Source: a phage. From it: a stretch of DNA of 64,000 nt. Positions 6,969 through 39,926 of this stretch are shown piece after piece. The notes beneath the pieces were generated by a model, which ran no database searches, was not told the DNA's origin, and worked only from the letters and a program-made list of their open reading frames with translations. Numbering within the stretch: the stretch's first letter is position 1; each line of letters opens with the position of its first letter. The stretch lies in sequence record PZ445427.1. One strand, written 5' to 3'. The translations under genes and the position numbers were made by a program.

Positions 6969-7736
6969 TTATTCAGCAGCCGCAGCTTTTGCATCCAGTT
7001 TAGCACGCTTAGCGGCACCATCATAGTCCTTAGCAACCAGACCACGACGAGACAGCATAGATTTAACACCGCGCTCAGACTTACCAGTTTTCTCAGCGAT
7101 CTCAGCAACAGTCATGTTAGCCAGATCCAGACCTTCTAACAGATCTTCACGAGTTTTAGCACTTGAAGTTTCCTGTACCGGCATAGCAGCGATACGACCT
7201 TCACGAAGCAGGCTCAGAGCTTTACCACGAATCTGCTTAATATTGCGACCGAAGTGAGCAGCGATAGCTTCAATAGTAGCACCAGCAACAACCTGATTAA
7301 CGAAATCAGTTTCTTCGTCAGGAGTGAAGGAACGAACAGCAGCAGCTTTTTCAGTTGGCTTAACAGAAGCGGTCATTTCCAGACTCAGGATCTTACCCTG
7401 TACCTGCTTAGCACCGAACTGACCACCAGCTACAGCAGCAGCGATTTCAGCGTAAGTATACTGACCAGCATGAGCGTTCAGGAAATCAACTAGTTCAGCT
7501 TCCTGCTCAGGAGTCCACGGGGATTTCTGTACTTCGTTAGCTTTCTGTACTTCGAAACCTTCTTTACGCAGCTTAGAGCCAACAGAGCGAGCGGTAACGT
7601 CTTTGCCAGTCTCGGTAGCCAGTTCAGCAGCGATAGCAGCTACTTGTTCTTGAGAGATTACAGCAACACCCAGAGCAGTGGCTTTTGCTTTCAGAGACTC
7701 GGTTACACCTTCTACGTTCCAGTTCAGTTTAGACAT
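6969..7736 (-). CDS. Ala-rich protein with repeated HTH-like units, putative DNA-binding regulator
   Basis: 255 aa; repeated segments resembling helix-turn-helix (e.g. MTVAEIAEKTGKSERGVKSMLSRRGL). Confidence 0.45.
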   Translation of the reverse strand: MSKLNWNVEGVTESLKAKATALGVAVISQEQVAAIAAELATETGKDVTARSVGSKLRKEGFEVQKANEVQKSPWTPEQEAELVDFLNAHAGQYTYAEIAAAVAGGQFGAKQVQGKILSLEMTASVKPTEKAAAVRSFTPDEETDFVNQVVAGATIEAIAAHFGRNIKQIRGKALSLLREGRIAAMPVQETSSAKTREDLLEGLDLANMTVAEIAEKTGKSERGVKSMLSRRGLVAKDYDGAAKRAKLDAKAAAAE

Positions 7737-8511
7737 TATTATTTTTCTCCAATAGTTCTTTAATCGACAGGATTTCTATCCCATTCGTTTCGGCTTTCTT
7801 ATAAGATGAGGAAGAACGTTTTGATTCATCCTCACAGATTAGGTATTTGACGTCTTTGGTAACGGACTTCTTGACCGTATATCCTAGACTTTCTAAATAG
7901 TTTGTTGCATCCGTTCGATTTGCAAAGTCTTGCAAAGATCCGGTAATACAGACCGTGATTCCATTTGGCTGGGCAACTAAATCATCTGTAATGATGATAT
8001 CAGCTTTAGCACCTCGAATACCAGTTGAGAATTTCCACGGTAGTTCAATAACATCCTTGCCTTGTGGGGAATTTAGCCAGGTTTTGTAATTTTCTCCAGC
8101 CTTGCCGTCAGCCTTCACATCGTGGAAGCTAGTGCAATTTTGGGACAGTTTCTTTGCTGCAACCTCTCCAATAAGAGGAATTCCTAAAGAACCGAGAACT
8201 GAACCAAAGTCAATGTCTCCGCGAACCTTAGTATTTAACTCGCTAATCAACTTAGCGGCAACCTTGCTACCCACAGCTCCTACCAAATCTTCTTCGGTCA
8301 GGTAAAACAGTTCTGAGATCTTAGTCAGCTCCAGCTTCTCAATAGTTTTCGGGCCAAAGCCCTTTAACTTCATTTTTGTGCAGAAGTTCTCGATTAACTT
8401 ACTTGATTGCGCTGGACAGTTGGACTTATTCCTACAGAATAATTGCCCGTTGACAAGATCTAGCTTAGAACCACAAGAGGGACATTGTGTTGGAATTTCG
8501 ATTTTCATCAA
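7729..8511 (-). CDS. NAD-dependent DNA ligase, C-terminal part (Zn finger, HhH, BRCT-like)
   Basis: 260 aa; Cys4 cluster CPSCGSK...CRNKSNC; HhH-like LKGFGPKTIEKL; separate ORF from the adenylation domain. Confidence 0.75.
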   Translation of the reverse strand: MMKIEIPTQCPSCGSKLDLVNGQLFCRNKSNCPAQSSKLIENFCTKMKLKGFGPKTIEKLELTKISELFYLTEEDLVGAVGSKVAAKLISELNTKVRGDIDFGSVLGSLGIPLIGEVAAKKLSQNCTSFHDVKADGKAGENYKTWLNSPQGKDVIELPWKFSTGIRGAKADIIITDDLVAQPNGITVCITGSLQDFANRTDATNYLESLGYTVKKSVTKDVKYLICEDESKRSSSSYKKAETNGIEILSIKELLEKNNNV

Positions 8512-8567: not shown

Positions 8568-8710
8568 CTACAATTTTAACTAACTTTGCTTACCCTCGCC
8601 ATAACTTTCTATCCCTCAACTGAATGATAATAGTATATACCTAAGCGGCGAAAATGTCAATAACCACTTTATAATTCCGACATGGTAAACGGGTAGCAAA
8701 GGGTTACGAA

Positions 8711-21028: not shown

Positions 21029-21057
21029 ATTATAACTCATTCGAAGGCGGATGTCAA
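21029..21057 (-). promoter_or_regulatory. sigma70-consensus promoter for nrdD (minus strand)
   Basis: minus-strand TTGACA-N17-TATAAT; differs from the reiterated TTGCTT-type cassette. Confidence 0.6.
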
Positions 21058-30040: not shown

Positions 30041-30742
30041 ATGAAATTCAAGCCCTTTGGTATGCTGGACATTGAATCTCTAGGTACTCCAGGAAATTGC
30101 GGTACTACTCATATTGCAATGCCTTCTTTCGCTTTTGTAGCGATGCACGGAATTGATAAAGATCCTGATCTGGTATTCGTTACTCTAGACGTTCAAGATC
30201 AGCTTAATGCGGGTGCTAAGGTAACTGCCTCTACTATTGCATTCTGGATGGATCAAGCTAAAAACAGTCCATCTGCGCTCCATATTATGGAGGCTCTAAA
30301 TGGTCGTAATCCTAAACTGATTGCCTTCCGTGATGGTAAGCATCACTGCACTAATGACGTAGGCTCTAATTATGCTGCCTTCTCTATGGCTCAGAACATT
30401 ATGGAATTGTCTCTAGGAGATAATGCTCTGTATTACGGCAATGGCCCAGAGTTTGATATGACAATCTACTCTGCAAATACGTTCCATGCCGGAACCCATG
30501 AAGAAATAGTTCCGTGGAAATTCTGGAACTTAGGTAACGTTCGATCTTTCCGTAATCAGTGGATGCAAGCTGGTTATAGCTATAAAGATCTAGAAGCCGA
30601 AGGTGCTAGCTGGGCAAAAGCTAAAATGGAAAAGATGGACACCATTCGTTATGGAATCTATCCTGTGAAGCATGATCCAGCATTCGATGCTTTAGTTGAA
30701 AGTTATTGTGTAGCCGTCATGATCGAAAAAATCAAAATTTGA
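30041..30742 (+). CDS. hypothetical protein (233 aa)
   Basis: ORF with SD AAAGGA. Confidence 0.6.
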   Translation: MKFKPFGMLDIESLGTPGNCGTTHIAMPSFAFVAMHGIDKDPDLVFVTLDVQDQLNAGAKVTASTIAFWMDQAKNSPSALHIMEALNGRNPKLIAFRDGKHHCTNDVGSNYAAFSMAQNIMELSLGDNALYYGNGPEFDMTIYSANTFHAGTHEEIVPWKFWNLGNVRSFRNQWMQAGYSYKDLEAEGASWAKAKMEKMDTIRYGIYPVKHDPAFDALVESYCVAVMIEKIKI

Positions 30743-30743
30743 T

Positions 30744-30772
30744 TTGCTTTCAGCTCCAAAATTCTGTATAAT
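30744..30772 (+). promoter_or_regulatory. promoter cassette (TTGCTT-N17-TATAAT)
   Basis: -35 begins right after upstream stop. Confidence 0.6.
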
Positions 30773-30812
30773 ATATTCATAAATTTGAGAGAACAACAAA
30801 AGGAAAACAATT

Positions 30813-30995
30813 ATGCCAGTATCTAAAAACGTCCGTAAAAATGGTAAAGTAGCAAAACGTAACCTGGGTCTGCGTCGTATGGCTGAACGTCAGTCCGGCA
30901 TCCAGAAAATCTTTAACGTACTGAATCGCGCCAATCCGAATATTGATAACAGTTCTGATACTGTTCTGCGCACTCTGCTCGCAATCGGTCTGTAA
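30813..30995 (+). CDS. small basic protein (60 aa)
   Basis: ORF after promoter cassette. Confidence 0.5.
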   Translation: MPVSKNVRKNGKVAKRNLGLRRMAERQSGIQKIFNVLNRANPNIDNSSDTVLRTLLAIGL

Positions 30996-31049
30996 TAGAC
31001 CGTTTTTAAAACAAATTCAAATCTCAAACTTCATATAAGGAAGCAAATA

Positions 31050-31688
31050 ATGACTACTCGTATCTCTAAAACTCGTGCTCTGGCAACTATCAAGTCTCTG
31101 GAAGCTAAAATCCGTAAAGCTACTGAACAACAGCTTTTGATTGCTGTTGGTGAAGGTAAAGACAAGAATCAAGTTGTCGTTGGTGCTGCAATCGAAGTAG
31201 ATGCTCTGTCTACTCGTATTAAAACTGATTTCCAGTCTCTGCTGGATATGATGACCCAGCGTGATCATCTGAAAGCAGCGCTGATCAAGAGCAATGCTGA
31301 AACTGTTGTAGAGATCGGTTCCCGCTCTATGACTGTTGCGGAAGCAATCGAAGCTAAGCGTTCTATGGAACTCAAAGCTCAGTTGCTGGCTAACATGCGT
31401 AAGCAGTTCCATGCTGCTACTGTTAAGTTTAACACTCAAAAGGCTCAGTTTGATGCCAAGTATGAGCGTTTGCAGGATACCATGGCTACCCGTGACAAGA
31501 AGACTTCCGAGGATGAAGTTAAGATGCAGCTTAACCTGCTGGAACTCAAGAACACTCCGTTCCTGATCGATCCGCTGGAGCTGGAAAAGCTGATCAAGCA
31601 ACACGACGAAGAGTACCAGGACTTTGCAACCAACGTTGACTTTGTTCTGTCTGAGTCCAACGCCTCTACTTTTATCGAAGTAGAGTAA
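31050..31688 (+). CDS. hypothetical protein (212 aa), predicted helical
   Basis: ORF; three overlapping antisense/alternative ORFs judged spurious. Confidence 0.6.
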   Translation: MTTRISKTRALATIKSLEAKIRKATEQQLLIAVGEGKDKNQVVVGAAIEVDALSTRIKTDFQSLLDMMTQRDHLKAALIKSNAETVVEIGSRSMTVAEAIEAKRSMELKAQLLANMRKQFHAATVKFNTQKAQFDAKYERLQDTMATRDKKTSEDEVKMQLNLLELKNTPFLIDPLELEKLIKQHDEEYQDFATNVDFVLSESNASTFIEVE

Positions 31689-32072
31689 TAATTTAAAAGA
31701 CTAGTAAATCGGTAGACGAAAGCCCAAGCATCTTACCTCGCAGCAGCGGTTGAAATACGAGGTTAAATAAGACCGCTGACCATACTATAAAGTATAATCT
31801 ATTGGAGATTATGTTTATTACATCAGACATTTAATCTGACACGTAAAAACAAAAGGTCGTTGGTAGTACCAACACAACTTCAAAGATCAACGCTCAAGTA
31901 TGAAAGCTGAAAAGTTAAAAGCACTCAAACTTCTAACCTTCTAAAGCTAAAAGATGCAAAGTATTCGTTGATGATTCAAACCCTAGATCAAAGGTACATG
32001 GCTCATAAGATATGGCCTGTGGCGCCTCTAGGCTGTTTATCGGTTTACTAGTCTCTCAATTTAAAAATGTAT

Positions 32073-32101
32073 TTGCTAATTAGTTTAGTTTTCTATATAA
32101 T
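32073..32101 (+). promoter_or_regulatory. promoter cassette (TTGCTA-N17-TATAAT)
   Basis: ends a 440-nt ORF-free segment. Confidence 0.6.
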
Positions 32102-32131
32102 ATATTTTTAAATTGATGAGACGAGGCTATT

Positions 32132-32449
32132 ATGATTTTTCATATTCTGATTGATGATGTGCGTAACCTTCATGGAATGGACATTATCATTCGAACCCCC
32201 GAAGCCGCTGTTGAGTTTCTGAATAAAACCGATACCACAGGTCATTTCGTTTATATGGATAACGATCTGGCTGTAGATGGTATGGAAGGTTATCAAATTC
32301 TTCGTTTACTCCTAGAATTTGGTCAGAGACCCAAGAAAGTGGTACTAGTAACCTCGAACCCAGTAGCTAAAGAGACCATGCGTAATGATCTCTTAGACGA
32401 AGGGTATCAAGAAAGCCCTAATCGTATTGAGTACGATTGGCCGGAGTAA
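32132..32449 (+). CDS. hypothetical protein (105 aa), receiver-domain-like fold suspected
   Basis: ORF; weak pattern only. Confidence 0.45.
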   Translation: MIFHILIDDVRNLHGMDIIIRTPEAAVEFLNKTDTTGHFVYMDNDLAVDGMEGYQILRLLLEFGQRPKKVVLVTSNPVAKETMRNDLLDEGYQESPNRIEYDWPE

Positions 32450-32454
32450 ATAAA

Positions 32455-32904
32455 ATGAAGGCAGCTTTGCTTTTAATAGCTGCCCTAACCTATAGCTTCA
32501 ATAGTCATGCGACCTACGACTCAAAGCAGATTGATTGCATTGCAAAAAATATCTACTTCGAAGCACGAGGTGAGGGCACTAAAGGAATGATCGCAGTTGC
32601 ACAGGTTACTAAAAACCGTGTTAACTCTGGTACTTTTCCTGATTCTTACTGTAAAGTAGTATATCAGTCTAACCAGTTCTCTTGGGTGGCCAAGAGACCA
32701 AAAGTTGATAAAACCGATGAGGCTTGGCAAGTTGCTAAGAATTTAGCTAGAGTGATATACTACGTTGATTTACCACAAGATCCAACACATGGAGCGTTAT
32801 ACTTCCATAGTGGTAAAGATAAACCGTACTGGACAAAGAAGTTTAAGAAAACAACGAAGATTCAAGGCCATACGTTCTACAAGCCTGTGGTTAAGAAAAC
32901 TTAA
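32455..32904 (+). CDS. SleB-like cell-wall hydrolase with signal peptide
   Basis: signal-like MKAALLLIAALTYSFNSHA; block NIYFEARGEG...AVAQVTKNRV typical of Hydrolase_2 family. Confidence 0.55.
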   Translation: MKAALLLIAALTYSFNSHATYDSKQIDCIAKNIYFEARGEGTKGMIAVAQVTKNRVNSGTFPDSYCKVVYQSNQFSWVAKRPKVDKTDEAWQVAKNLARVIYYVDLPQDPTHGALYFHSGKDKPYWTKKFKKTTKIQGHTFYKPVVKKT

Positions 32905-32912
32905 AAATTCGA

Positions 32913-32941
32913 TTGCTTAAAGCCTTAAATTTCTGTATAAT
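32913..32941 (+). promoter_or_regulatory. promoter cassette (TTGCTT-N17-TATAAT)
   Basis: followed by conserved leader and ATG 32973. Confidence 0.6.
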
Positions 32942-32972
32942 ACTTTCATAAATTAATGAGAGGAAGCGAAAT

Positions 32973-33143
32973 ATGAAATCAGTTGTAATTATTGGTGTTA
33001 ATACTCGTGGTATCCGTACTACGAAAACAGTTAAAACTACTAACGTTGCTGAAATTACTACAAACCCTAAGAAGTTTGATTTCGCTAAAGTCTCGGCAGT
33101 TATGACAGAACAATCTTTTAACCAAGCACTGGGAATTAAATAA
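32973..33143 (+). CDS. hypothetical small protein (56 aa)
   Basis: ATG after GAGAGGAAG; stop overlaps next start (TAATG). Confidence 0.4.
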   Translation: MKSVVIIGVNTRGIRTTKTVKTTNVAEITTNPKKFDFAKVSAVMTEQSFNQALGIK

Positions 33144-33586
33144 TGGAAGAGAATATTCTAAATGTTTTGCGTAGGGCTTTGCAGGAATCTAAGGTTGATG
33201 GTTCTGATAAAGAAGTAGCTAAAAGCTACCAGACCATAATCGGAGATCTTCAGCGTGTTGATAAAGACTTCATTACTTCTGAACAGTTTGTATCTTATCT
33301 AAAAGCTCAACTGAAAAGCATTAATCAGACGAAAGCTAAACTTCACGGTCAAGACCTTGATAATTATAGCTTGCAGTCTGCTCAGTATGAGTATATACTG
33401 AACAAATGGCTACAACAGTATCTGCCGCCTCAGTTATCTGATTCTGAGATTCGCAAATACTTTGCAGAATTAGTTAAGTTGAACCCTGGGATTACAAAAG
33501 GTATGCTGATGAAAGCGATTAAGGAAGAGTTTCCTGGTCGTTACGACGGTGGCATTGCTGCTCAGGTTGCTGGCGAATTTAATTAA
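33143..33586 (+). CDS. YqeY/GatB-C-terminal-domain-like protein
   Basis: 147 aa; blocks YLPPQLSDSEIRKYF and C-terminal GxxKGxLMKAIKEE...G resemble YqeY family. Confidence 0.45.
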   Translation: MEENILNVLRRALQESKVDGSDKEVAKSYQTIIGDLQRVDKDFITSEQFVSYLKAQLKSINQTKAKLHGQDLDNYSLQSAQYEYILNKWLQQYLPPQLSDSEIRKYFAELVKLNPGITKGMLMKAIKEEFPGRYDGGIAAQVAGEFN

Positions 33587-33594
33587 AAATTGAT

Positions 33595-33623
33595 TTGCTA
33601 AACGCCTCAAAATTCTGTATAAT
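33595..33623 (+). promoter_or_regulatory. promoter cassette driving an ORF-free region
   Basis: TTGCTA-N17-TATAAT at 33595-33600/33618-33623; no start codon within normal distance. Confidence 0.6.
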
Positions 33624-33629
33624 AGATTC

Positions 33630-34482
33630 ATAAATTAGAGAACAGCGAGCCGATTACGCTGAGTGAGTTTAGTGATTCCTACTAGGATAGCTATTCCACT
33701 GAATAGAGTCGGTGAGTTGGAGACTAGTAAGTACTCTGAGAGAGGCTACGAGCTAACGCTTATTGCTATTGATAGGGAACTGAAAATCTGCGGAAAACTC
33801 GGGAGCTGTCCCGAAATCTCGTAAACTCTTCTCTAGTTTATGTTAGTGGGGTGTCGAACTGACTTATGTGATAACACTGCCGTCCTAGTATAAACGGTAA
33901 TATCAAACCGTAACTGGTGGAAGATGCAGGTTCGAATCCTGCGGTCGGAAAGAATCAGATAACTCGGGCTTATACCGGATAAGCATTCGCTGCTGGAGTA
34001 CATACTATGACGGTTCAGGAGGTACGCCACCTGATCAGTATTAGGTTAGAATCGAAACAGCTAAACCACGAGGAAACCTGACGGCCTCAACCAAACTCGG
34101 AACTCGGGATCACTGCCTAGTGTGTGCCCCGTTTAACCTGAGACTAGGCATCCAGCTTCGCATCGAAAATCGGAGGTGCGATTCTAACAGACCGCGTGAA
34201 TATGAGAGTGGGAAACGCTGACATGAGAGATGTCACTAATGGTGCCCAATAGTACAGGTAATTCGCGATAATTCCTGTTGAGCGGCAGCAGTAGGCTGGG
34301 AGTCATGACCTAAGCCTAACCGAGTTCTTCACATACGGAGAACATAACCACAAAGTCACCCTGACTTAAACTGGAAGATATTGTCTGACGGAAGGGCTGC
34401 AGAGCTTAATCTGAGGGGGCTGACCCTACCTACCGTCGGGTATCTTTAAGAGCTTTTATAAGAGTTCTTAAAAATACCTAAA
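33630..34482 (+). ncRNA. candidate large structured non-coding RNA (about 850 nt), class unknown
   Basis: no plus-strand ORF >=60 aa; balanced composition unlike AT-rich spacers; hairpins (e.g. GCCTAGT...ACTAGGC); three AACTCGGG repeats; internal partial tRNA copy. Confidence 0.45.
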
Positions 34483-34557
34483 CGGGGTGTAGTCTAAGGG
34501 ATAGGCAGGAGTCTTCTAAATTCCTTTATGCAGGTTCGAATCCTGTCACCTCGGCCA
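34483..34557 (+). tRNA. tRNA-Arg (anticodon UCU)
   Basis: acceptor CGGGGTG/CACCTCG; anticodon stem GGAGT/ATTCC with loop CTTCTAA; T-arm GCAGG-TTCGAAT-CCTGT; CCA encoded. Confidence 0.7.
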
Positions 34558-34583
34558 ATTTTATTAACTGCTAGGAAAATAAA

Positions 34584-34784
34584 GTGAAAACACGATATAT
34601 AGTAAAAGTAGTAGGTGAACATTCACAAGTAAATACCACCGATGTTACAGCGCTAGCATTTGAAGTAGTCTCCGGTATAGTCATATTTCATAACGGAGAT
34701 ATCAAAGCTCCTGAATTTGCTGTGGATGCTAGCCTGTTTATTTCTGCAACTAAAGTAACTGTAGTAGCTAACTCTTCTAAATAA
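34584..34784 (+). CDS. hypothetical protein (66 aa)
   Basis: ORF with SD AGGAAAATAAAG. Confidence 0.4.
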   Translation: MKTRYIVKVVGEHSQVNTTDVTALAFEVVSGIVIFHNGDIKAPEFAVDASLFISATKVTVVANSSK

Positions 34785-34795
34785 TAAGGAAATAT

Positions 34796-35740
34796 ATGTT
34801 TACTAAAAACACTAAAGAACTGACTTCCGATCAAAAAGTAATTCGTACTATTAAACGTTGGGGTGTTGGTGCTGTAGTTGGTCTTGGCGCTCTTATTCTG
34901 GCTCTCAATTCCTACACAGTTGTTCAGGATGGTACTGTTAAGACTCAAACCTTCCTGGGTAAAGTTAGCCCGAACCCTGTACTGCCAGGCTTCCATATTG
35001 TTAACCCATTTGCTTCTTTTGATACTTTTAGTACGAAAGATATTTCTATGAAACTGGATAAACTTCAGGTTCCTAGCCAGGATAAGTTTAAGTCTACTGT
35101 TGACATTACCGTTATGTTGCAGTTTGATGGTGCTAAAGCTCCTATGAACCGTGTTAACGCAGGTACTCAGGATCAGGCTCTGAACAAGTACGTTGAAGAG
35201 AAGATGCTATCTACGATTCGTGAGTTTGGTAAGTCTGTACCAAAAGCACAAGATCTGTTCGACGCTAAGATTCAGGCTCAACTGCAAACTGCTATTCAGC
35301 AAGAAGTAGAGGAGTATGCGCGTCCTTATGGTTACACCGTTAAGCAAGTATTCCTTCAGGATATTACTCTGCCACCGGTAATCATGGAACAGGTACAGAA
35401 CACCAAAGTTCGTGAAGAACAAGTTAACGCTGCAAAAGCTGAACTGGCTCGTGTTGAACAAGAAGCACAACAGAAAGTTAAGCAAGCTGAGGCAGATCGT
35501 TCTGCTCGTGAAAACATGGCAGTAGCTAACGAACGTGACGCAGATGCTAAACTGTACGCAGCTAAGAAAGAAGCTGAAGCTAACGCCGCTCTGCAACGTA
35601 CCATTACTCCTGAAATGATTCGTTGGAAGCAGCTGGAAGTTGAAATGCTTCGTGCTGAAAAATACCAAGGTGGTGTACCGCAGACTGTTGTTGGTACTGG
35701 CTATGATGGTCAAATGATCATGGATATGCGTAACAAGTAA
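34796..35740 (+). CDS. SPFH/band-7 (HflK/C-, prohibitin-like) membrane protein
   Basis: 314 aa; N-terminal TM helix, SPFH-like core, long Ala/Glu/Gln-rich coiled-coil tail. Confidence 0.65.
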   Translation: MFTKNTKELTSDQKVIRTIKRWGVGAVVGLGALILALNSYTVVQDGTVKTQTFLGKVSPNPVLPGFHIVNPFASFDTFSTKDISMKLDKLQVPSQDKFKSTVDITVMLQFDGAKAPMNRVNAGTQDQALNKYVEEKMLSTIREFGKSVPKAQDLFDAKIQAQLQTAIQQEVEEYARPYGYTVKQVFLQDITLPPVIMEQVQNTKVREEQVNAAKAELARVEQEAQQKVKQAEADRSARENMAVANERDADAKLYAAKKEAEANAALQRTITPEMIRWKQLEVEMLRAEKYQGGVPQTVVGTGYDGQMIMDMRNK

Positions 35741-35763
35741 TAGTTACACGTAATCTTCGAACC

Positions 35764-35798
35764 AAGCCCGCGTTTCCTCCGAGAGCGCGGGCTTTTCT
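35764..35798 (+). terminator. rho-independent terminator
   Basis: GCCCGCG...CGCGGGC hairpin followed by TTTTCTGT. Confidence 0.6.
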
Positions 35799-35814
35799 GT
35801 ATTTAAGACAAAAG

Positions 35815-35850
35815 AAAAGCCCCTTACCTTTCGGCAGGGGCTTTGTTTTT
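35815..35850. terminator. bidirectional terminator between convergent transcription units
   Basis: GCCCCTT...AGGGGC hairpin flanked by T-runs on both strands. Confidence 0.6.
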
Positions 35851-36057
35851 GGTTTAGAACCATATACTCTTGTTACAGCAACCACCCATACGGGAGACCA
35901 ATCTTGACTGAAAATCTACTCTAGGGGGCAGGATAAGAGTAGGCTTAAAGGCAAACGGATTGAACACCGGTATTTGCGTAAACATTGCTGGAGAGCAACA
36001 ACGTGCTACAGGCATTGGGCAGCATGATGTAGGTTTTCTACAACACATATAAACTCC

Positions 36058-36477
36058 TTAGGATTTCTCCCCATTTTGCGCTTTTGCAACTTGACTTTGA
36101 CAGAAACTATTAAACTTACCCATAAGTGAAACAAGTTGCTTCCCATCCTCTGTTTTAGCGAAGTCTTCGAAAAGGGCTAGAACAGCCTGTCCTTCCGCAG
36201 ATACCTGCGGTTGTTGGGTTTGTTGAGTCATCTGCTGCTGTGGTTGCATTTGCTGAGGCATCATCTGCTGAGGCACCATTTGTTGCATTTGCATTTGCGG
36301 CTGCATTTGCATCTGGTTGATGTTTCCCTGCGGGTTTTGCAGGGAATTTTGCATTTGCTGTGCTTCTGCCAATCTCTGTTGCAACTGTTGTAAGTAGGGG
36401 TTATCCAGCCCCGGAACGGGCTGCTGGGAGCCCATACTTTGATTAAATCCGTTGTTCACAAAACCATATTTACTCAT
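36058..36477 (-). CDS. Gln/Met-rich low-complexity protein (139 aa)
   Basis: about 40% Q in central region (QMQPQMQMQQMVPQQMMPQQMQPQQQ); structured C-terminus. Confidence 0.55.
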   Translation of the reverse strand: MSKYGFVNNGFNQSMGSQQPVPGLDNPYLQQLQQRLAEAQQMQNSLQNPQGNINQMQMQPQMQMQQMVPQQMMPQQMQPQQQMTQQTQQPQVSAEGQAVLALFEDFAKTEDGKQLVSLMGKFNSFCQSQVAKAQNGEKS

Positions 36478-36499
36478 GATGGGCTCCTCCCCTTAATTA

Positions 36500-37495
36500 T
36501 TAAGCCGGCAGTTTAGCCTGCAGACCAGCCAGAGTCTGAGTGATAGCACCAAGACTTACAGCGATTTGGTTGATTACCTGACCGTTAGCACCGCTACCCT
36601 GAGCGATAGCTTCACGCAGACGGCATTCGTTCAGTTCGTCCTGAATACGCGCAGTAGTTACACCAGCGATTGCAGACTGAAGTTCACAGCAGCATTCAGC
36701 GATCTGACGTTCCAGAGCGTTCTGGTTAGCACAAGCCTGAGCAGCTACAGCAGCGAACTGGTTGTTAGTCTGGATAGACTGAGCAAACATGATCTGAGCG
36801 GTATCGAACTTGTCTTGAGCACGTGCGATCTGGTTAGCAGCGAAAGCTTGATCCATTTGACGAGAAAGATCGAACTGACCCTGAATAACATTACGAGTTT
36901 CCTGACAGATCTGGTTGGACAGGTTAGCACCAGTACCGTAGATCGTAGTCAGAAGCTGTTGAGTACTAGCAGCTTGAGCAGCTCCTACACCATTTACTGC
37001 ACTCAGAACAGCACCAGTACCCTGATTAGCTTCAGTACGAGTAGTGTTGATTGCAGCTAGAATACTTGCAGTATCCTGGTTAGAAAGGATCGCATCCACA
37101 GCAGTTCCCTCAGCGGCAACACCAGCACCGCGGCCAAAACCACCGAAACCACCGAATCCGCCTGTTAATAGAGCACCGATTAGGATAGCTCCGAATAGAC
37201 CCATACCTTCACCACCGAAAGCACCATTAGCAACTGCTGGGTAACCACCCATTAGGCCAGGGAAGCCACTAGTGAATACGTTTACTGGTTCTTGCATTTT
37301 ATGTTTTCCATGTTTATGACAATGTTCATCATCGTCATCTTCTTCATCATTTTCATCGTGTTCACGATGTTCTTTTTCGTAGGCCTTGACCTTCTCCCAC
37401 TTTTTCTTGTCTGATTCTTCGTGACGACGCAGTTCTGCTGCTACGCCAGCGACCGTATCAGGACTCTTAGCTACTTCTTCTGTCATTTTTGACAC
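36500..37495 (-). CDS. membrane protein with His/acidic N-terminus and glycine-zipper segment (331 aa)
   Basis: HREHDENDEEDDDDEHCHKHGKH; Gly-zipper GGFGGFGGFGRG with hydrophobic stretch; Ala/Gln-rich C-terminal half with CCCELQ. Confidence 0.55.
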   Translation of the reverse strand: MSKMTEEVAKSPDTVAGVAAELRRHEESDKKKWEKVKAYEKEHREHDENDEEDDDDEHCHKHGKHKMQEPVNVFTSGFPGLMGGYPAVANGAFGGEGMGLFGAILIGALLTGGFGGFGGFGRGAGVAAEGTAVDAILSNQDTASILAAINTTRTEANQGTGAVLSAVNGVGAAQAASTQQLLTTIYGTGANLSNQICQETRNVIQGQFDLSRQMDQAFAANQIARAQDKFDTAQIMFAQSIQTNNQFAAVAAQACANQNALERQIAECCCELQSAIAGVTTARIQDELNECRLREAIAQGSGANGQVINQIAVSLGAITQTLAGLQAKLPA

Positions 37496-37547
37496 CTCCT
37501 AGTATATAGAAAATGTGTGTCTCTTTGATCACTCATCCATATCATAT

Positions 37548-37576
37548 ACTTTACATTACCCCAGCGAAAATGTCAA
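37548..37576 (-). promoter_or_regulatory. sigma70-like promoter for the 37495..36058 operon (minus strand)
   Basis: minus-strand TTGACA-N17-TAAAGT, then AGGAGGTG SD and ATG 37495. Confidence 0.5.
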
Positions 37577-37692
37577 GGGGTCTTTAAAAATTGCCCCCGG
37601 ATTTTTAGTGGGGTAACAATTTCTGGACTTCACCACTCACCTGCTACCCTTAAGTGCCCTGCGATTTTCCACTAAAAAGTTTAAAAATTCGA

Positions 37693-37721
37693 TTGCTTGA
37701 ATGCTAAATTCTCTGTATAAT
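37693..37721 (+). promoter_or_regulatory. promoter cassette (TTGCTT-N17-TATAAT)
   Basis: leader AAATTTGAGAGAGGAATCAAAT then ATG 37752. Confidence 0.6.
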
Positions 37722-37751
37722 ATATTTATAAATTTGAGAGAGGAATCAAAT

Positions 37752-38807
37752 ATGATTAAGACTGGTCTAGTAATTGGTAAGTTCGCACCATTAACGCGTG
37801 GTCATATTAACCTAATAAACACAGCAGCAACTATGTGTGAACGAGTTATTGTTGTAGTTAGTCATGATAATCGTTGGCTGGATAAGCAGAACACACGTGA
37901 TCAGGAAGTATTACAGTTAAAGAATCGACTTCGTTGGTTAGAACAAACTTACGCGGATATTGAGCACATTTCGGTAGAGTACATTATTGAAGATGATATT
38001 CCTGAATATCCGAATGGTTGGCCGGAATATGCTAGAATCCTTAATGAAAATTACGGACATTTGCCTGAGATCACCATTTTCTCTAGCGAACTAGACTATG
38101 ATGCAGAATATAAGAAATATCTGCCGAAGTTTGGTCATTATATTGTAGATTCTGATCGGACTCGTGTTCCAATCTCAGCTACAATGATTCGTAATGATCT
38201 TATGAAGTATTGGGAGTTTCTTCCTAGCGTAGTTCGTAAAGATTACGTGCGTAAGGTTGTAATCATTGGGACTGAAAGCTCGGGAAAGACTACTTTAACA
38301 AAATACCTTGCGAAGCTATACAACACTTCGTGGGTAGAAGAATATGGCCGAACGTATTGTGAAGTTGATCTAGTTGGTAACGAAAATCTACTTACCAGTG
38401 AAGATTATAGTAAAATTGCGTTCAGACACAAAGAGCTAGAGTTTGAAGCAGAACGTACTGCAAATAAGATCATGTTTGTGGATACAAATGCTTTTATTAC
38501 TGAGTTCTACCACAGACTTTATGAACATCGTAAGAATCCTGTGGTTACAGCAATTGCAAAAGAAGAACATTACGATTTAGTAATTGTTCTAGCGCCTACT
38601 GTTAAGTGGGTAGATGATGGTTTACGTATTAACTCCGATCGTTCAATTACTTCTGAACTGTTCGAGCAGATGAAGAAAGAATTTCCAAATCAGTTCCCTG
38701 AAGGGCGTACTGTTTACATCGACTCCCCGGACTACAAAGTTCGTATGGACGAAGCAGTAAACGCAGTAGACTGGCTGATTCATCACTTTAACGTTGGAGA
38801 GTTTTAA
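37752..38807 (+). CDS. NadR-like bifunctional NMN adenylyltransferase / ribosylnicotinamide kinase
   Basis: nucleotidyltransferase motif GKFAPLTRGH; Walker A IIGTESSGKTTL (compare NadR GGESSGKS); start at internal ATG after SD. Confidence 0.7.
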   Translation: MIKTGLVIGKFAPLTRGHINLINTAATMCERVIVVVSHDNRWLDKQNTRDQEVLQLKNRLRWLEQTYADIEHISVEYIIEDDIPEYPNGWPEYARILNENYGHLPEITIFSSELDYDAEYKKYLPKFGHYIVDSDRTRVPISATMIRNDLMKYWEFLPSVVRKDYVRKVVIIGTESSGKTTLTKYLAKLYNTSWVEEYGRTYCEVDLVGNENLLTSEDYSKIAFRHKELEFEAERTANKIMFVDTNAFITEFYHRLYEHRKNPVVTAIAKEEHYDLVIVLAPTVKWVDDGLRINSDRSITSELFEQMKKEFPNQFPEGRTVYIDSPDYKVRMDEAVNAVDWLIHHFNVGEF

Positions 38808-38808
38808 T

Positions 38809-39486
38809 ATGACTAACTATCTTGTAAATGACTTTAAAAACTGGAAACCTTTGGAATATCTGTGGCTGTTTATAGCAGTCGCCTTTATTAGTTTAGCAAA
38901 CTATAATGGTACAGCTCTAGATTGGGCTACTGCAATAACCAATGTGGTTTGTGTTATTCTGGTTGCAAAAGGACGTGTTTCCAACTATATTTGGGGCTTA
39001 GTGGGTGTTCTTACATATGGTATTACAGCTTTAAACGCAGATCTTTATGGTAACGCTGCACTAAACCTGCTATACTACGTTCCTATGCAGTTTTATGGAA
39101 TGTACTTATGGCATAAAAATAAGCCAAGTAATCTGCCAGATGTTCCAACTAAGGTTCTGACTAAAGCCCAAGCTCTGCTGACTCTAGGGATTCTAGCAGT
39201 AGCCACGTTAGGGTATGGTAGTTTCTTAGCTACTACGGCTGATCCATTCCCAATGTTGGATGCATTTACTGCGGTAGGTAGTGTGATCGCTATGTGGCTT
39301 ATGGTTAAGCAGTATGCCGAGCAGTGGCTGATCTGGATTGCTATTAACATTGGTACTGTGTACATTTGGCTTGTAACTGCTCAATCTACAGGTGCATCTT
39401 ATGCAATCCTAGCAATGTGGCTAGTATTCTTAGGTAACTCTATTATGGGAGCCTATAAAGGATACTTTGTACGCGTTAACAAATAA
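38809..39486 (+). CDS. PnuC-like nicotinamide riboside transporter
   Basis: about 225 aa polytopic membrane protein with W-rich helices; immediately follows NadR-like gene. Confidence 0.6.
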   Translation: MTNYLVNDFKNWKPLEYLWLFIAVAFISLANYNGTALDWATAITNVVCVILVAKGRVSNYIWGLVGVLTYGITALNADLYGNAALNLLYYVPMQFYGMYLWHKNKPSNLPDVPTKVLTKAQALLTLGILAVATLGYGSFLATTADPFPMLDAFTAVGSVIAMWLMVKQYAEQWLIWIAINIGTVYIWLVTAQSTGASYAILAMWLVFLGNSIMGAYKGYFVRVNK

Positions 39487-39897: not shown

Positions 39898-39926
39898 TTG
39901 CTTAATGCCGAAATTTTCTGTATAAT
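39898..39926 (+). promoter_or_regulatory. promoter cassette driving tRNA operon
   Basis: TTGCTT-N17-TATAAT; first tRNA starts about 15 nt after predicted TSS. Confidence 0.6.

What the first reader, a model, noticed from the sequence alone, without database searches (positions are those of the whole stretch)
35815..37576. Opposite-strand two-gene module with low-complexity proteins and a host-type promoter
Seen in sequence: in an otherwise plus-strand region, two minus-strand genes (37495..36500 and 36477..36058) are driven by a TTGACA-type promoter (37548-37576) rather than the phage cassette, and end at a bidirectional terminator (35815-35850). Protein 1 combines a His/Asp/Glu-rich N-terminus, a glycine-zipper hydrophobic segment (GGFGGFGGFGRG) and an Ala/Gln-rich helical half with a CCCELQ cluster. 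Protein 2 is dominated by Gln/Met repeats. Inference: neither resembles standard phage replication or lysis proteins; the architecture suggests a membrane-active or condensate-forming accessory module (exclusion, toxin-like or host takeover).
Basis: partly seen in the sequence, partly recalled or inferred. Interest (0 to 1): 0.6.

Follow-up and report, generated by a model that had tools for sequence, protein, structure and literature searches.

The report
Mobile three-gene phage accessory operon
This is a small, self-contained and dispensable three-gene operon of T5-like phages (the counterpart of T5 genes T5.077-T5.079) that encodes a probable membrane-anchored helical protein with an invariant triple-cysteine motif plus two small cysteine-bearing partners; the same cassette turns up in four unrelated phage groups, but its function is still unknown.

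Summary
The window is a T5-like phage, 99% identical to Escherichia phage IrmaTschudi. The minus-strand unit holds three genes, not two. A 64-aa Cys/Pro-rich ORF (36048..35854) fills the gap before the terminator. The unit matches T5.077-T5.079. Its TTGACA promoter is T5's annotated P12, and its hairpin is T5's annotated bidirectional terminator.

All three proteins are under purifying selection and co-occur in about 220 phage genomes. The same trio, in the same order, occurs in a lambdoid phage, in Pseudomonas KPP23/RSP phages and in an N4-like phage. It is cleanly deleted from close relatives such as SP_Thor. Published T5 data show it is dispensable. It is therefore a mobile accessory cassette of the moron type.

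Protein 1 belongs to a large, uncharacterised phage family (171 clusters). The family shares a Gly-rich hydrophobic segment, a helical domain and an invariant CCC motif. It has no Pfam, PDB or defence-system match. Structure prediction gave only low-confidence helices.

My best reading is a membrane-anchored, cysteine-linked three-protein complex acting in phage-host or phage-phage competition. Its accessory status is well supported. Membrane activity is plausible. The actual function is untested.

The parts
37548..37576 (-). Sigma-70-type promoter, TTGACA (37576-37571), 17 nt spacer, TAAAGT (37553-37548). It is the orthologue of T5 promoter P12.
   Evidence: Consensus scan, 10 of 12 matches. 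One of only 3 TTGACA-type sites in the window. Aligns base for base with the annotated P12 of T5.
37487..37547 (-). 5' leader with the AGGAGG ribosome-binding site (37500-37495). It is almost invariant among T5-like phages.
   Evidence: The 4-phage alignment is invariant over about 110 nt from upstream of the -35 element to the start codon, although coding dS between the same phages is 0.3-0.9.
36500..37495 (-). Gene 1, orthologue of T5.077. It encodes 331 aa from the GTG at 37495, or more likely 328 aa from the ATG at 37486. The order of features is: N-terminal helix with an HExxD motif, a His/Asp/Glu tract, a Gly-rich hydrophobic segment, then a helical Ala/Gln-rich domain of about 200 aa with an invariant CCC.
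   Evidence: ORF. phrog_8119, E 5e-196. 221 phage records. dN/dS 0.14-0.15. Fop 0.74, 2.4 SD above the window mean. AF2 model all-helical with low confidence.
37133..37201 (-). Codons for residues 99-121, GLFGAILIGALLTGGFGGFGGFG. This is the predicted membrane segment.
   Evidence: Highest Kyte-Doolittle 19-mer, 1.72. Conserved in position across the whole family.
36686..36694 (-). Codons for the invariant Cys268-Cys269-Cys270 (CCC) motif.
   Evidence: Invariant in alignments A1 and A2. In the 55-sequence A4 alignment C269 is invariant and C268 and C270 are conserved at 90% or more. Two of the 55 members have no CCC.
36058..36477 (-). Gene 2, orthologue of T5.078, 139 aa. It has a short conserved N-terminal helix (LQQLQQRLAEAQQMQ), a variable Gln/Met/Pro-rich linker, and a conserved C-terminal domain TEDGKQL..KF..FCQ with one invariant Cys. 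No signal peptide.
   Evidence: ORF with a GGAGGAG ribosome-binding site. phrog_7894. 221 records. Four-lineage alignment. dN/dS 0.15-0.18.
35854..36048 (-). It encodes 64 aa, Pro-rich (14%) and Cys-rich (12.5%), with four CC doublets and an N-terminal MCC. It has no signal peptide or lipobox.
   Evidence: ORF with an AAGGAG ribosome-binding site. 220 records at 80-100% identity. dN/dS 0.21-0.27. Cys-doublet homologues sit directly after gene 2 in the lambdoid, Pseudomonas and N4-like copies.
35815..35850 (.). Bidirectional intrinsic terminator, a G+C-rich hairpin with T-runs on both strands. It ends the operon.
   Evidence: Sequence and fold: -41.9 kcal/mol for 35740-35860, z -3.9. Annotated as an efficient bidirectional terminator in T5. 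Equivalent hairpins follow gene 3 in the lambdoid and KPP23 copies.
35764..35794 (+). Separate plus-strand terminator of the convergent SPFH/Band-7 gene (34796..35740). It is a neighbour, not part of the module.
   Evidence: Terminator scan. The SPFH gene is kept in relatives that lack the module.

Best explanation
The region is a mobile, self-transcribed accessory operon of the moron type. It is orthologous to T5.077-T5.078-T5.079.

Shown: host sigma-70 RNA polymerase has a plausible start site at a conserved TTGACA/TAAAGT promoter (T5 P12). Three tightly packed genes, each with a strong ribosome-binding site, follow it, and the unit ends at a bidirectional hairpin terminator.

Inferred: gene 1 gives an abundant protein that is held in the inner membrane by its Gly-rich hydrophobic segment and oligomerises through its long helical domain. 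The family-invariant CCC motif, the invariant Cys of protein 2 and the CC doublets of protein 3 form a shared thiol-based site, either a metal-thiolate centre or covalent cross-links, that ties the three proteins into one complex. Proteins 2 and 3 have no export signals, and flank charges in the wider family favour an N-out/C-in orientation. I therefore place the helical domain and both partners on the cytoplasmic face.

Most speculative: the complex is not needed for phage growth in the laboratory. I think it acts at the envelope in competition, either by excluding superinfecting phages or by blunting or evading a host defence.

Sub-claim probabilities: accessory mobile cassette about 0.9; membrane anchoring about 0.65; three-protein complex about 0.5; exclusion or defence-related role about 0.3.
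For: Identity with the T5 P12 / T5.077-079 / terminator unit. Promoter and terminator found independently. Three genes with their own ribosome-binding sites. Purifying selection on all three, dN/dS 0.14-0.27. Strict co-occurrence in 221, 221 and 220 phage records.

The same gene order occurs as a discrete unit in four settings: a lambdoid phage, between the Q antiterminator and the holin/lysozyme/Rz genes and on the opposite strand; Pseudomonas phages KPP23/RSP; an N4-like contig next to the virion RNA polymerase gene; and T5-like phages.

SP_Thor, whose SPFH protein is 100% identical, has a clean deletion of about 1.75 kb that leaves a remnant of the gene 3 end. Local G+C is 0.477 against about 0.40 nearby.

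Published dispensability: CRISPRi-ART knock-down scores T5.077, T5.078 and T5.079 as 'Not Fit' (PMC11879866, supplementary file 16). The viable T5Mos variant lacks 30661-38625, which removes P12 and the first 187 codons of T5.077 if those are NC_005859 coordinates (PMC11464382).

The hydrophobic Gly-rich segment and CCC are conserved in a family of 171 clusters. Flank charges: N-side 11 K+R against 52 D+E; C-side 37 K+R against 27 D+E. Gene 1 codon usage is among the most 'highly expressed' in the window. Cysteines are invariant in all three proteins across lineages.
Against: No experiment or homology gives a function. The hydrophobic peak is borderline (KD19 1.72). The T5-type protein also carries a charged N-terminal extension of about 95 aa (14 K+R, 22 D+E) that would be hard to export, so the topology is unresolved. 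AF2 confidence is low (pLDDT 45 and 58, pTM 0.2) and heptad periodicity is weak (7% of shuffles reach it). A physical complex of the three proteins is inferred only from co-inheritance. There was no PADLOC hit and no similarity to any known exclusion or anti-defence protein. I could not retrieve expression data: the Bas33 RNA-seq table is truncated in the held copy.
Confidence: 0.4

Rival explanations
1. Cytoplasmic host-takeover or anti-defence effectors. The three proteins act on a host target or defence system inside the cell, and the hydrophobic Gly-rich stretch is an interaction or low-complexity element rather than a membrane anchor.
For: The module sits in a plastic accessory region. 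In T5 its divergent neighbour T5.076 is annotated as subverting retron defence, and the nearby tRNA genes counter PARIS. The module is dispensable on laboratory K-12, as anti-defence genes usually are. Proteins 2 and 3 lack export signals. The hydropathy peak is borderline.
Against: The hydrophobic segment is the most consistently placed feature of a very diverse family. In distant members it is a clear transmembrane-like stretch such as WWIIILFLF. There is no similarity to any known anti-defence protein.
Confidence: 0.2
2. A metal- or thiol-handling module. The CCC motif, the CC doublets, the His-rich tract and the Met-rich linker bind soft metals (Cu, Zn) or an Fe-S cluster, and so buffer metal or redox stress in the infected cell.
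For: Cysteines are the only residues invariant across all lineages in all three proteins. T5-type copies add His-rich tracts (up to HHYHHHHHEH) and MxM-type repeats. An HExxD motif sits in the one confidently modelled helix.
Against: The His-rich and Met-rich tracts are not conserved outside T5-like phages. No metal-binding family was matched. This describes a property, not a biological role, and it is compatible with the best explanation.
Confidence: 0.1
3. A lysis-related or membrane-remodelling device. Protein 1 would work like an i-spanin or a class I fusion protein, with a hydrophobic Gly-rich peptide followed by long helices, and the Pro/Cys-rich protein 3 would be its partner.
For: The architecture resembles the N-terminal TMD plus helical domain of Rz, and protein 3 is small, Pro-rich and Cys-bearing like Rz1. 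The family profile gives weak hits to influenza HA2, HEF2 and coronavirus S2 helical regions (E 0.011-0.19). GLFGAI is also the start of the influenza HA2 fusion peptide (from memory). In the lambdoid phage the unit lies beside the lysis genes.
Against: Those hits are not significant and look compositional. Protein 3 has no signal peptide or lipobox. The lambdoid host phage already has its own Rz-family gene (PF03245), and the unit is on the opposite strand from the lysis cassette. Knock-down in T5 has no fitness effect. There is no Phage_lysis hit.
Confidence: 0.08
4. A toxin-like or abortive module. The membrane protein permeabilises or depolarises the membrane, and the small proteins modulate it.
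For: Gly-rich hydrophobic helices occur in pore formers. A weak profile hit to the Gly-rich N-terminal region of colicin E1 (E 0.03). Own promoter.
Against: Codon usage suggests high expression of protein 1, which fits poorly with a potent toxin. The unit is stably carried by virulent phages and by a probable temperate phage. No toxin family was matched.
Confidence: 0.07
5. A virion or assembly component, for example a scaffold or an ejected membrane protein.
For: High codon adaptation. In some distant relatives the family gene lies near tail genes.
Against: It is dispensable and absent from close relatives. It is transcribed against the flow from a host-type promoter, and it lies outside the late region. 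In the distant phages it sits in the plastic junction between the tail or lysis module and the replication module, next to HTH and HNH genes.
Confidence: 0.05

Closest known systems
Phage T5 promoter P12, T5.077, T5.078, T5.079 and the bidirectional terminator (NC_005859 37954-39720)
   Same: Orthologous unit. It has the same promoter sequence (near-identical over about 110 nt), the same three genes in the same order, the same terminator and the same convergent SPFH neighbour T5.080.
   Different: On the promoter side T5 has T5.076 (Toprim-like, anti-retron), whereas this phage has NadR-like and PnuC genes. All T5 products are annotated only as hypothetical, and no function is published.
Phage morons, i.e. 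autonomous accessory transcription units such as lambda bor/lom and HK97 gp15
   Same: Own promoter and terminator. Inserted between conserved genes and transcribed independently of, and here against, the surrounding programme. Higher G+C than the flanks. Present or absent among close relatives. Non-essential. In the lambdoid copy it sits at the classic Q-to-lysis moron site.
   Different: Most copies are in virulent phages, so lysogenic conversion cannot be the general role. It is a three-gene unit rather than one gene. Expression from a prophage was not tested.
Membrane-bound superinfection-exclusion proteins (T4 Imm and Sp, P22 SieA, HK97 gp15, lactococcal Sie2009)
   Same: Small accessory membrane-anchored phage proteins that are made independently of late genes and are dispensable in single infections. 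This comparison draws on general knowledge of those proteins.
   Different: There is no sequence or fold relation. Protein 1 is much larger, with a long helical domain, and needs two co-inherited partners. An exclusion phenotype is untested.
Two-component spanins (Rz/Rz1)
   Same: An N-terminal hydrophobic anchor with a helical, Cys-bearing domain, paired with a small Pro-rich, Cys-bearing protein encoded nearby.
   Different: Protein 3 has no lipoprotein signal. The unit is outside the lysis cassette. It is non-essential. A phage that carries it also has a true Rz gene. No family match.
Class I viral fusion subunits (influenza HA2, coronavirus S2)
   Same: A Gly-rich hydrophobic peptide followed by long helices. 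Weak profile hits at E 0.011-0.19.
   Different: The hits are below significance. There is no evidence of trimeric hairpin architecture, and the biological setting is entirely different.

Membership tests
Phage moron / autonomous accessory cassette | Own promoter upstream | tested here: met
   TTGACA-17-TAAAGT at 37576..37548. It equals the annotated T5 P12. This is a sequence match only; transcription was not measured.
Phage moron / autonomous accessory cassette | Own terminator downstream | tested here: met
   Hairpin with T-runs at 35815-35850. Equivalent hairpins are present in the lambdoid and KPP23 copies.
Phage moron / autonomous accessory cassette | Present or absent between otherwise collinear relatives | tested here: met
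   SP_Thor goes from SPFH straight to NadR with a 270-bp spacer holding a remnant of the gene 3 end. About 220 records carry the trio, whereas 397 match the 2-kb region.
Phage moron / autonomous accessory cassette | Dispensable for lytic growth | tested here: met
   From the literature: CRISPRi-ART scores T5.077-079 'Not Fit', and the T5Mos deletion is viable.
Phage moron / autonomous accessory cassette | Expressed from the repressed prophage | not testable with these tools
   The lambdoid copy is on the opposite strand between Q and the holin gene. No expression data.
Two-component spanin (Rz/Rz1) | o-spanin is an outer-membrane lipoprotein with a signal peptide and lipobox | tested here: not met
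   Protein 3 starts MCCRKPTSCC and has no hydrophobic signal or lipobox.
Two-component spanin (Rz/Rz1) | Encoded in the lysis cassette and required for lysis | tested here: not met
   The unit is separate from the lysis genes. The lambdoid carrier has its own PF03245 gene. Knock-down is neutral. No Phage_lysis hit.
Class I viral fusion protein | Significant sequence or fold similarity to the HA2/S2 core | tested here: not met
   Best E-value 0.011, below significance. Foldseek found nothing.
cAMP-dependent protein kinase catalytic subunit (the 'kapc' label on gene 2 in several GenBank records) | Protein kinase catalytic domain | tested here: not met
   No kinase domain in the Pfam or NCBIfam scans. 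Only sub-threshold low-complexity hits. The label appears in AY587007, Seabear and STWB21.
Known anti-phage defence or Abi proteins (PADLOC) | Match to a defence-system model | tested here: not met
   No hits for proteins 1-3 or for the distant relatives P0027 and P0192. P0189 gave one non-significant hit, JetC/MukB-like, E 0.086.
Holin / antiholin | Small protein with one to three or more TMDs and a charged C-terminus, next to an endolysin gene | tested here: not met
   Protein 1 is 331 aa with one borderline hydrophobic segment and a 200-aa helical domain. It is not next to the endolysin gene.
CCC-motif phage protein family (phrog_8119 / 9288 / 16490; uncharacterised) | N-proximal Gly-rich hydrophobic segment, helical domain and conserved (A/Q)xCCC(E/D) motif | tested here: met
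   phrog_8119 at E 5e-196. Profile search finds 171 clusters. The motif and segment are conserved in alignments A1, A2 and A4.
Superinfection-exclusion membrane proteins | Blocks entry or growth of a second phage when expressed | not testable with these tools
   Needs plating assays. There is no sequence family to test against.

The most novel reading that the evidence does not exclude
The CCC-motif proteins are a previously unrecognised, widespread class of phage membrane-anchored helical oligomers. Their triple cysteine, together with dedicated small Cys-bearing and Gln-rich partners, would build a metal- or disulfide-locked assembly at the cell membrane. That assembly would remodel or seal the envelope, in a fusogen-like or exclusion-like way. 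The T5.077-079 cassette would be a portable version exchanged among T5-like, N4-like, lambdoid and Pseudomonas phages.
Probability: 0.15. Interest if true: 0.7.

Novelty: new member of a known kind. Interest (0 to 1): 0.38.

Why it matters
T5 is a classic model phage and T5-like phages are widely used in therapy and biocontrol, yet T5.077-079 remain unexplained. This analysis makes three points.

First, the genes form one portable three-gene unit that selection keeps together in four unrelated phage lineages. That argues for a general, host-facing function rather than a T5-specific one.

Second, protein 1 is the entry point to a large family (171 clusters at 50% identity, three PHROG families, no Pfam) with a striking invariant CCC motif. 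Solving one member would annotate many phage genes of unknown function.

Third, the unit is dispensable in the laboratory and has a natural deletion variant. Clean genetic tests for exclusion, defence evasion, lysis timing and metal binding are therefore straightforward.

If the role proves to be ordinary exclusion, the result is a useful annotation but not a surprise.

Tried and rejected
Database scans of the three proteins. Pfam, NCBIfam and PADLOC gave nothing significant, and PHROGs gave only families of unknown function. PDB sequence searches with single proteins and with the family profile gave only sub-threshold coiled-coil or Gly-rich hits: HA2, colicin E1, keratin and spike S2.

Structure. 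Two AlphaFold2 runs, with 14 and 55 sequences, gave pLDDT 45 and 58 and pTM 0.2. Both models are all long helices and are not usable for fold assignment. Foldseek against PDB and BFVD returned nothing meaningful: vimentin at E 1.2 and a Pandoravirus SMC-like protein at E 0.03.

Rejected labels. The kinase label on gene 2 is a low-complexity artefact. Spanin, holin and class I fusion membership all fail (see the membership tests).

Literature. Searches for T5.077, T5.078 and T5.079, for their accession numbers and for the PHROG ids found no functional study. The hits were prefix matches to unrelated accessions. The HIDEN-SEQ preprint covers no T5-like phage. The Bas33 RNA-seq and proteome table (PMC13250531) is truncated in the held copy and lacks the relevant genes. 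I first suspected bas33_0082 was gene 3, but by position it matches a different small ORF.

Other searches. The lambdoid copy has no match in 5,426 complete E. coli genomes, so its host stays unknown. The genome-contig scan found one locus only, but it used a single peptide pattern, so it is weak evidence of absence from prophages. Cluster look-ups gave no names for distant relatives.

SPFH neighbour. A functional link between the module and the SPFH neighbour was considered and dropped. SPFH is kept where the module is deleted and has a different divergence history.
Full report
WHAT THE WINDOW IS. The 2-kb region is 99% identical to Escherichia phage IrmaTschudi (Bas28, Epseptimavirus, Demerecviridae) and matches 397 T5-like phage records. 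The window carries 29 tRNA genes, a NadR-like gene, a PnuC gene and an SPFH/Band-7 gene. This is the early, tRNA-rich accessory region of a T5-like genome.

CHECK OF THE OBSERVATION. The promoter-like site TTGACA-17-TAAAGT is at 37576..37548. The surrounding genes use a different and highly repeated cassette, TTGCT[A/T]-N17-TATAAT, with 27 matches against 0.58 expected. TTGACA-type sites occur only three times in the window. The hairpin at 35815-35850 has T-runs on both strands and folds well (z -3.9 for the 121-nt stretch). The composition claims for both proteins hold.
- Three corrections are needed.
- Gene 1 probably starts at the ATG at 37486, because the GTG at 37495 lies inside the ribosome-binding site and homologues start MTEEV.
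- 'Glycine zipper' is only loosely correct.
- The whole unit is already annotated in T5 as promoter P12, T5.077, T5.078, T5.079 and an 'efficient bidirectional rho-independent terminator', with a major DNA nick site just beyond it. The promoter and leader are almost invariant among T5, Seabear, Bas27 and this phage.

ARE THE GENES REAL AND DO THEY BELONG TOGETHER? Against T5 and Seabear, dN/dS is 0.14-0.15 for gene 1, 0.15-0.18 for gene 2 and 0.21-0.27 for gene 3.
- tblastn finds the three proteins in 221, 221 and 220 phage records, with the same organism breakdown.
- The same three genes, in the same order and ended by a hairpin, occur in three other settings.
- One is a lambdoid phage, where they lie between the Q antiterminator and the holin/lysozyme/Rz genes on the opposite strand.
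- Another is Pseudomonas phages KPP23 and RSP, where they lie divergent from the terminase genes.
- The third is an N4-like contig, next to the giant virion RNA polymerase gene.
- Across these lineages only a few features survive. In protein 1 they are the hydrophobic segment, the CCC motif and the C-terminal helices. In protein 2 they are a short N-terminal helix and a C-terminal TEDGKQL..KF..FCQ domain, while the Gln/Met tract is a variable linker. In protein 3 they are the N-terminal MC(C), a PV..CC motif and Pro-richness.
- Each protein therefore keeps at least one invariant cysteine.

ACCESSORY STATUS. Salmonella phage SP_Thor has an SPFH protein 100% identical to this window's, but it passes from SPFH to NadR through a 270-bp spacer that still contains a remnant of the gene 3 end. 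This is a clean deletion of about 1.75 kb.
- The Seabear SPFH gene is almost identical to the window's (dS 0.03), while the cassette genes differ by dS 0.08-0.7. The cassette therefore has its own history. Local G+C is 0.477 against about 0.40.
- Published data agree. A transcriptome-wide dCas13d knock-down screen scores T5.077, T5.078 and T5.079 (and T5.080) as 'Not Fit' and lists them as unknown function (PMC11879866, supplementary files 8 and 16).
- The viable T5Mos strain lacks 30661-38625, which removes P12 and the first part of T5.077 if those are NC_005859 coordinates (PMC11464382).
- This fits the definition of a moron-type cassette. The difference is that most carriers are virulent phages.

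WHAT THE PROTEINS ARE. No curated family, solved structure or defence model matches any of the three. The 'cAMP-dependent protein kinase' label on gene 2 in several records is a low-complexity artefact.
- Protein 1 is phrog_8119. A profile search of 1.84 billion cluster representatives finds 171 clusters at E up to 1e-3 and 23 at E up to 1e-10. Most are 220-290 aa.
- The family members share a short N-terminus and a Gly-flanked hydrophobic stretch, such as LLIGALLFGG or WWIIILFLF, followed by GGFGGFG. A helical Asn/Gln/Ala-rich domain and the motif (A/Q)xCCC(E/D) follow.
- They map to phrog_8119, phrog_9288 and phrog_16490, all of unknown function. 76 loci were found in viral contigs, against one in 185,579 species genomes, though that genome scan used only one pattern.
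- In these distant phages the gene lies in the plastic junction between the tail or lysis module and the replication module. It is co-oriented with small GerE/sigma-r4-like proteins, with Gln/Asn/Met-rich proteins that share the QQRL..EQQ helix of protein 2, and with a BclA_C/C1q-like or a 97-aa beta-rich protein. A Gln-rich partner is thus an old companion of the family, while protein 3 is specific to the T5-type branch.
- AlphaFold2 gives only low-confidence long helices (pLDDT 45 and 58). The one confident element is the N-terminal helix carrying a conserved HExxD motif. Fold searches return nothing.
- The family profile gives weak, non-significant hits to influenza HA2, HEF2, coronavirus S2 helical regions and the Gly-rich part of colicin E1 (E 0.011-0.19). 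I treat these as a resemblance of architecture only.

TOPOLOGY AND EXPRESSION LEVEL. The best 19-residue hydropathy window is 1.72, at residues 99-117. Across 55 family members, the 15 residues before the hydrophobic core hold 11 K+R and 52 D+E. The 15 residues after it hold 37 K+R and 27 D+E. This favours N-out/C-in.
- That orientation would put the Cys-bearing helical domain in the cytoplasm, together with proteins 2 and 3, which lack export signals.
- The T5-type protein has an extra charged N-terminal region of 95 residues that would be hard to export, so the topology stays open.
- Gene 1 uses E. coli 'optimal' codons at 0.74. The window mean is 0.51 with SD 0.095, and gene 1 ranks fourth of all ORFs. 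Genes 2 and 3 do not share this bias. This suggests protein 1 is made in quantity.

MOST LIKELY MECHANISM, AND WHAT IS SHOWN OR INFERRED.
- Shown: a conserved, self-contained three-gene unit that is mobile among phages and dispensable, with a plausible host-type promoter and a terminator.
- Inferred: protein 1 is membrane-anchored and oligomeric, and the three proteins form one complex held by a cysteine-based site, either a metal-thiolate centre or cross-links.
- Speculative: the complex acts at the envelope in competition, either by excluding other phages or by interacting with host defences.
- The reasons for the last step are as follows. The unit is useless in single infections of K-12 yet is kept under purifying selection. 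It spreads among unrelated phages of Gammaproteobacteria. It occupies a moron site in a lambdoid phage. In T5 it neighbours genes with proven anti-defence roles.
- Rival readings are listed with their tests: a cytoplasmic anti-defence effector, a metal or redox module, a spanin- or fusogen-like device, a toxin, and a virion component.

VERDICT. The sequence observation is largely right, apart from the missed third gene. The 'accessory module' reading is well supported. Membrane association is plausible but unproven, and condensate formation, toxicity and exclusion are untested. The unit is a known but uncharacterised T5 operon. What is new here is its portability as a trio and its link to a large CCC-motif family. 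Interest is moderate. It is a tractable piece of unexplained phage gene content rather than a demonstrated new mechanism.

Noticed in passing
window 35854-36048 (-): The 64-aa Cys/Pro-rich third gene (the T5.079 orthologue) has no annotated feature under the match ('none') in 8 of the 12 records listed, although it is 80-100% conserved in 220 genomes. KPP23 annotates a different frame at that position.
   Followed up: yes
L011:5716-5919 (-) and L099:6756-6911 (-): In the lambdoid and the N4-like copies, a homologous small zinc-ribbon protein (MDRRYCPxCGTL.HKC..CG.WFTK.R...) is encoded divergently just upstream of gene 1. It may be a regulator that travels with the cassette. T5-like and KPP23 copies lack it.
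   Followed up: partly
window 37487-37600 (-): The promoter and 5' leader of the operon are almost invariant across T5, Seabear, Bas27 and this phage. They are more conserved than the coding sequence and contain CCCC/GGGG inverted repeats around the -35 element. This suggests an operator or an RNA element.
   Followed up: partly
window, 27 sites (e.g. 33595-33623, 37693-37721, 39898-39926): The phage's own early-promoter cassette, TTGCT[A/T]-N17-TATAAT, often with TG before the -10 element, occurs 27 times against 0.58 expected.
   Followed up: yes
window 8632-8660 (-) and 21029-21057 (-): These are the only two other TTGACA-type promoter-like sites. The first shares the 13-mer TTGACATTTTCGC with the operon's promoter and lies upstream of a 260-aa gene (7729..8511) and the window's most codon-optimised gene (6969..7736, Fop 0.83). 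Together they may form a small separate promoter class.
   Followed up: partly
window 34796-35740 (+): The convergent SPFH/Band-7 gene (T5.080, labelled 'lipoprotein' or 'membrane protease') also has high codon adaptation (Fop 0.69). It has close homologues in T4-like phages of Yersinia, Klebsiella, Cronobacter and Aeromonas. It is scored 'Not Fit' in T5.
   Followed up: partly
window 37701-39486 (+) versus T5 37279-37797: The promoter-side neighbour differs between phages. Here it is a NadR-like adenylyltransferase/kinase gene plus the PnuC transporter gene. In T5 it is T5.076, a Toprim-like protein annotated as subverting retron defence. Bas27 has two extra small genes there. The site is a hot spot for accessory genes.
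   Followed up: partly
window 35764-35794: The SPFH terminator hairpin contains GAGCGCGG. T5 annotates its major single-strand nick (32.6%, consensus Pu-GCGC) in the matching spot between the two terminators.
   Followed up: no
GenBank records AY587007, MK728824, MW567727 and others: Gene 2 is repeatedly labelled 'cAMP-dependent protein kinase catalytic subunit' (kapc). This is a propagated artefact of its Gln-rich low-complexity tract.
   Followed up: yes
L058, L091, L093 and related viral contigs: Distant CCC-family genes sit in a recurring cassette. Its other members are a small GerE/sigma-r4-like protein, Asn/Gln/Met-rich proteins, a Cys-bearing BclA_C/C1q-like protein and a weakly ferritin-like protein. 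The cassette lies between the tail or lysis genes and the replication genes.
   Followed up: partly
P0054, P0058, P0079 (metagenomic proteins): Longer relatives (390-685 aa) carry apolipoprotein-like helical repeats and end in the same ECCCxxK...LRDEL motif, sometimes twice. Their source organisms are unknown.
   Followed up: partly
phage records MG065642 and MG065692: Two records named 'Campylobacter phage' (A148, C13) are T5-like genomes. A148 is 97.7% identical to this region at the DNA level, and C13 matches protein 1 at 75%. They are probably mislabelled or contaminant assemblies.
   Followed up: no
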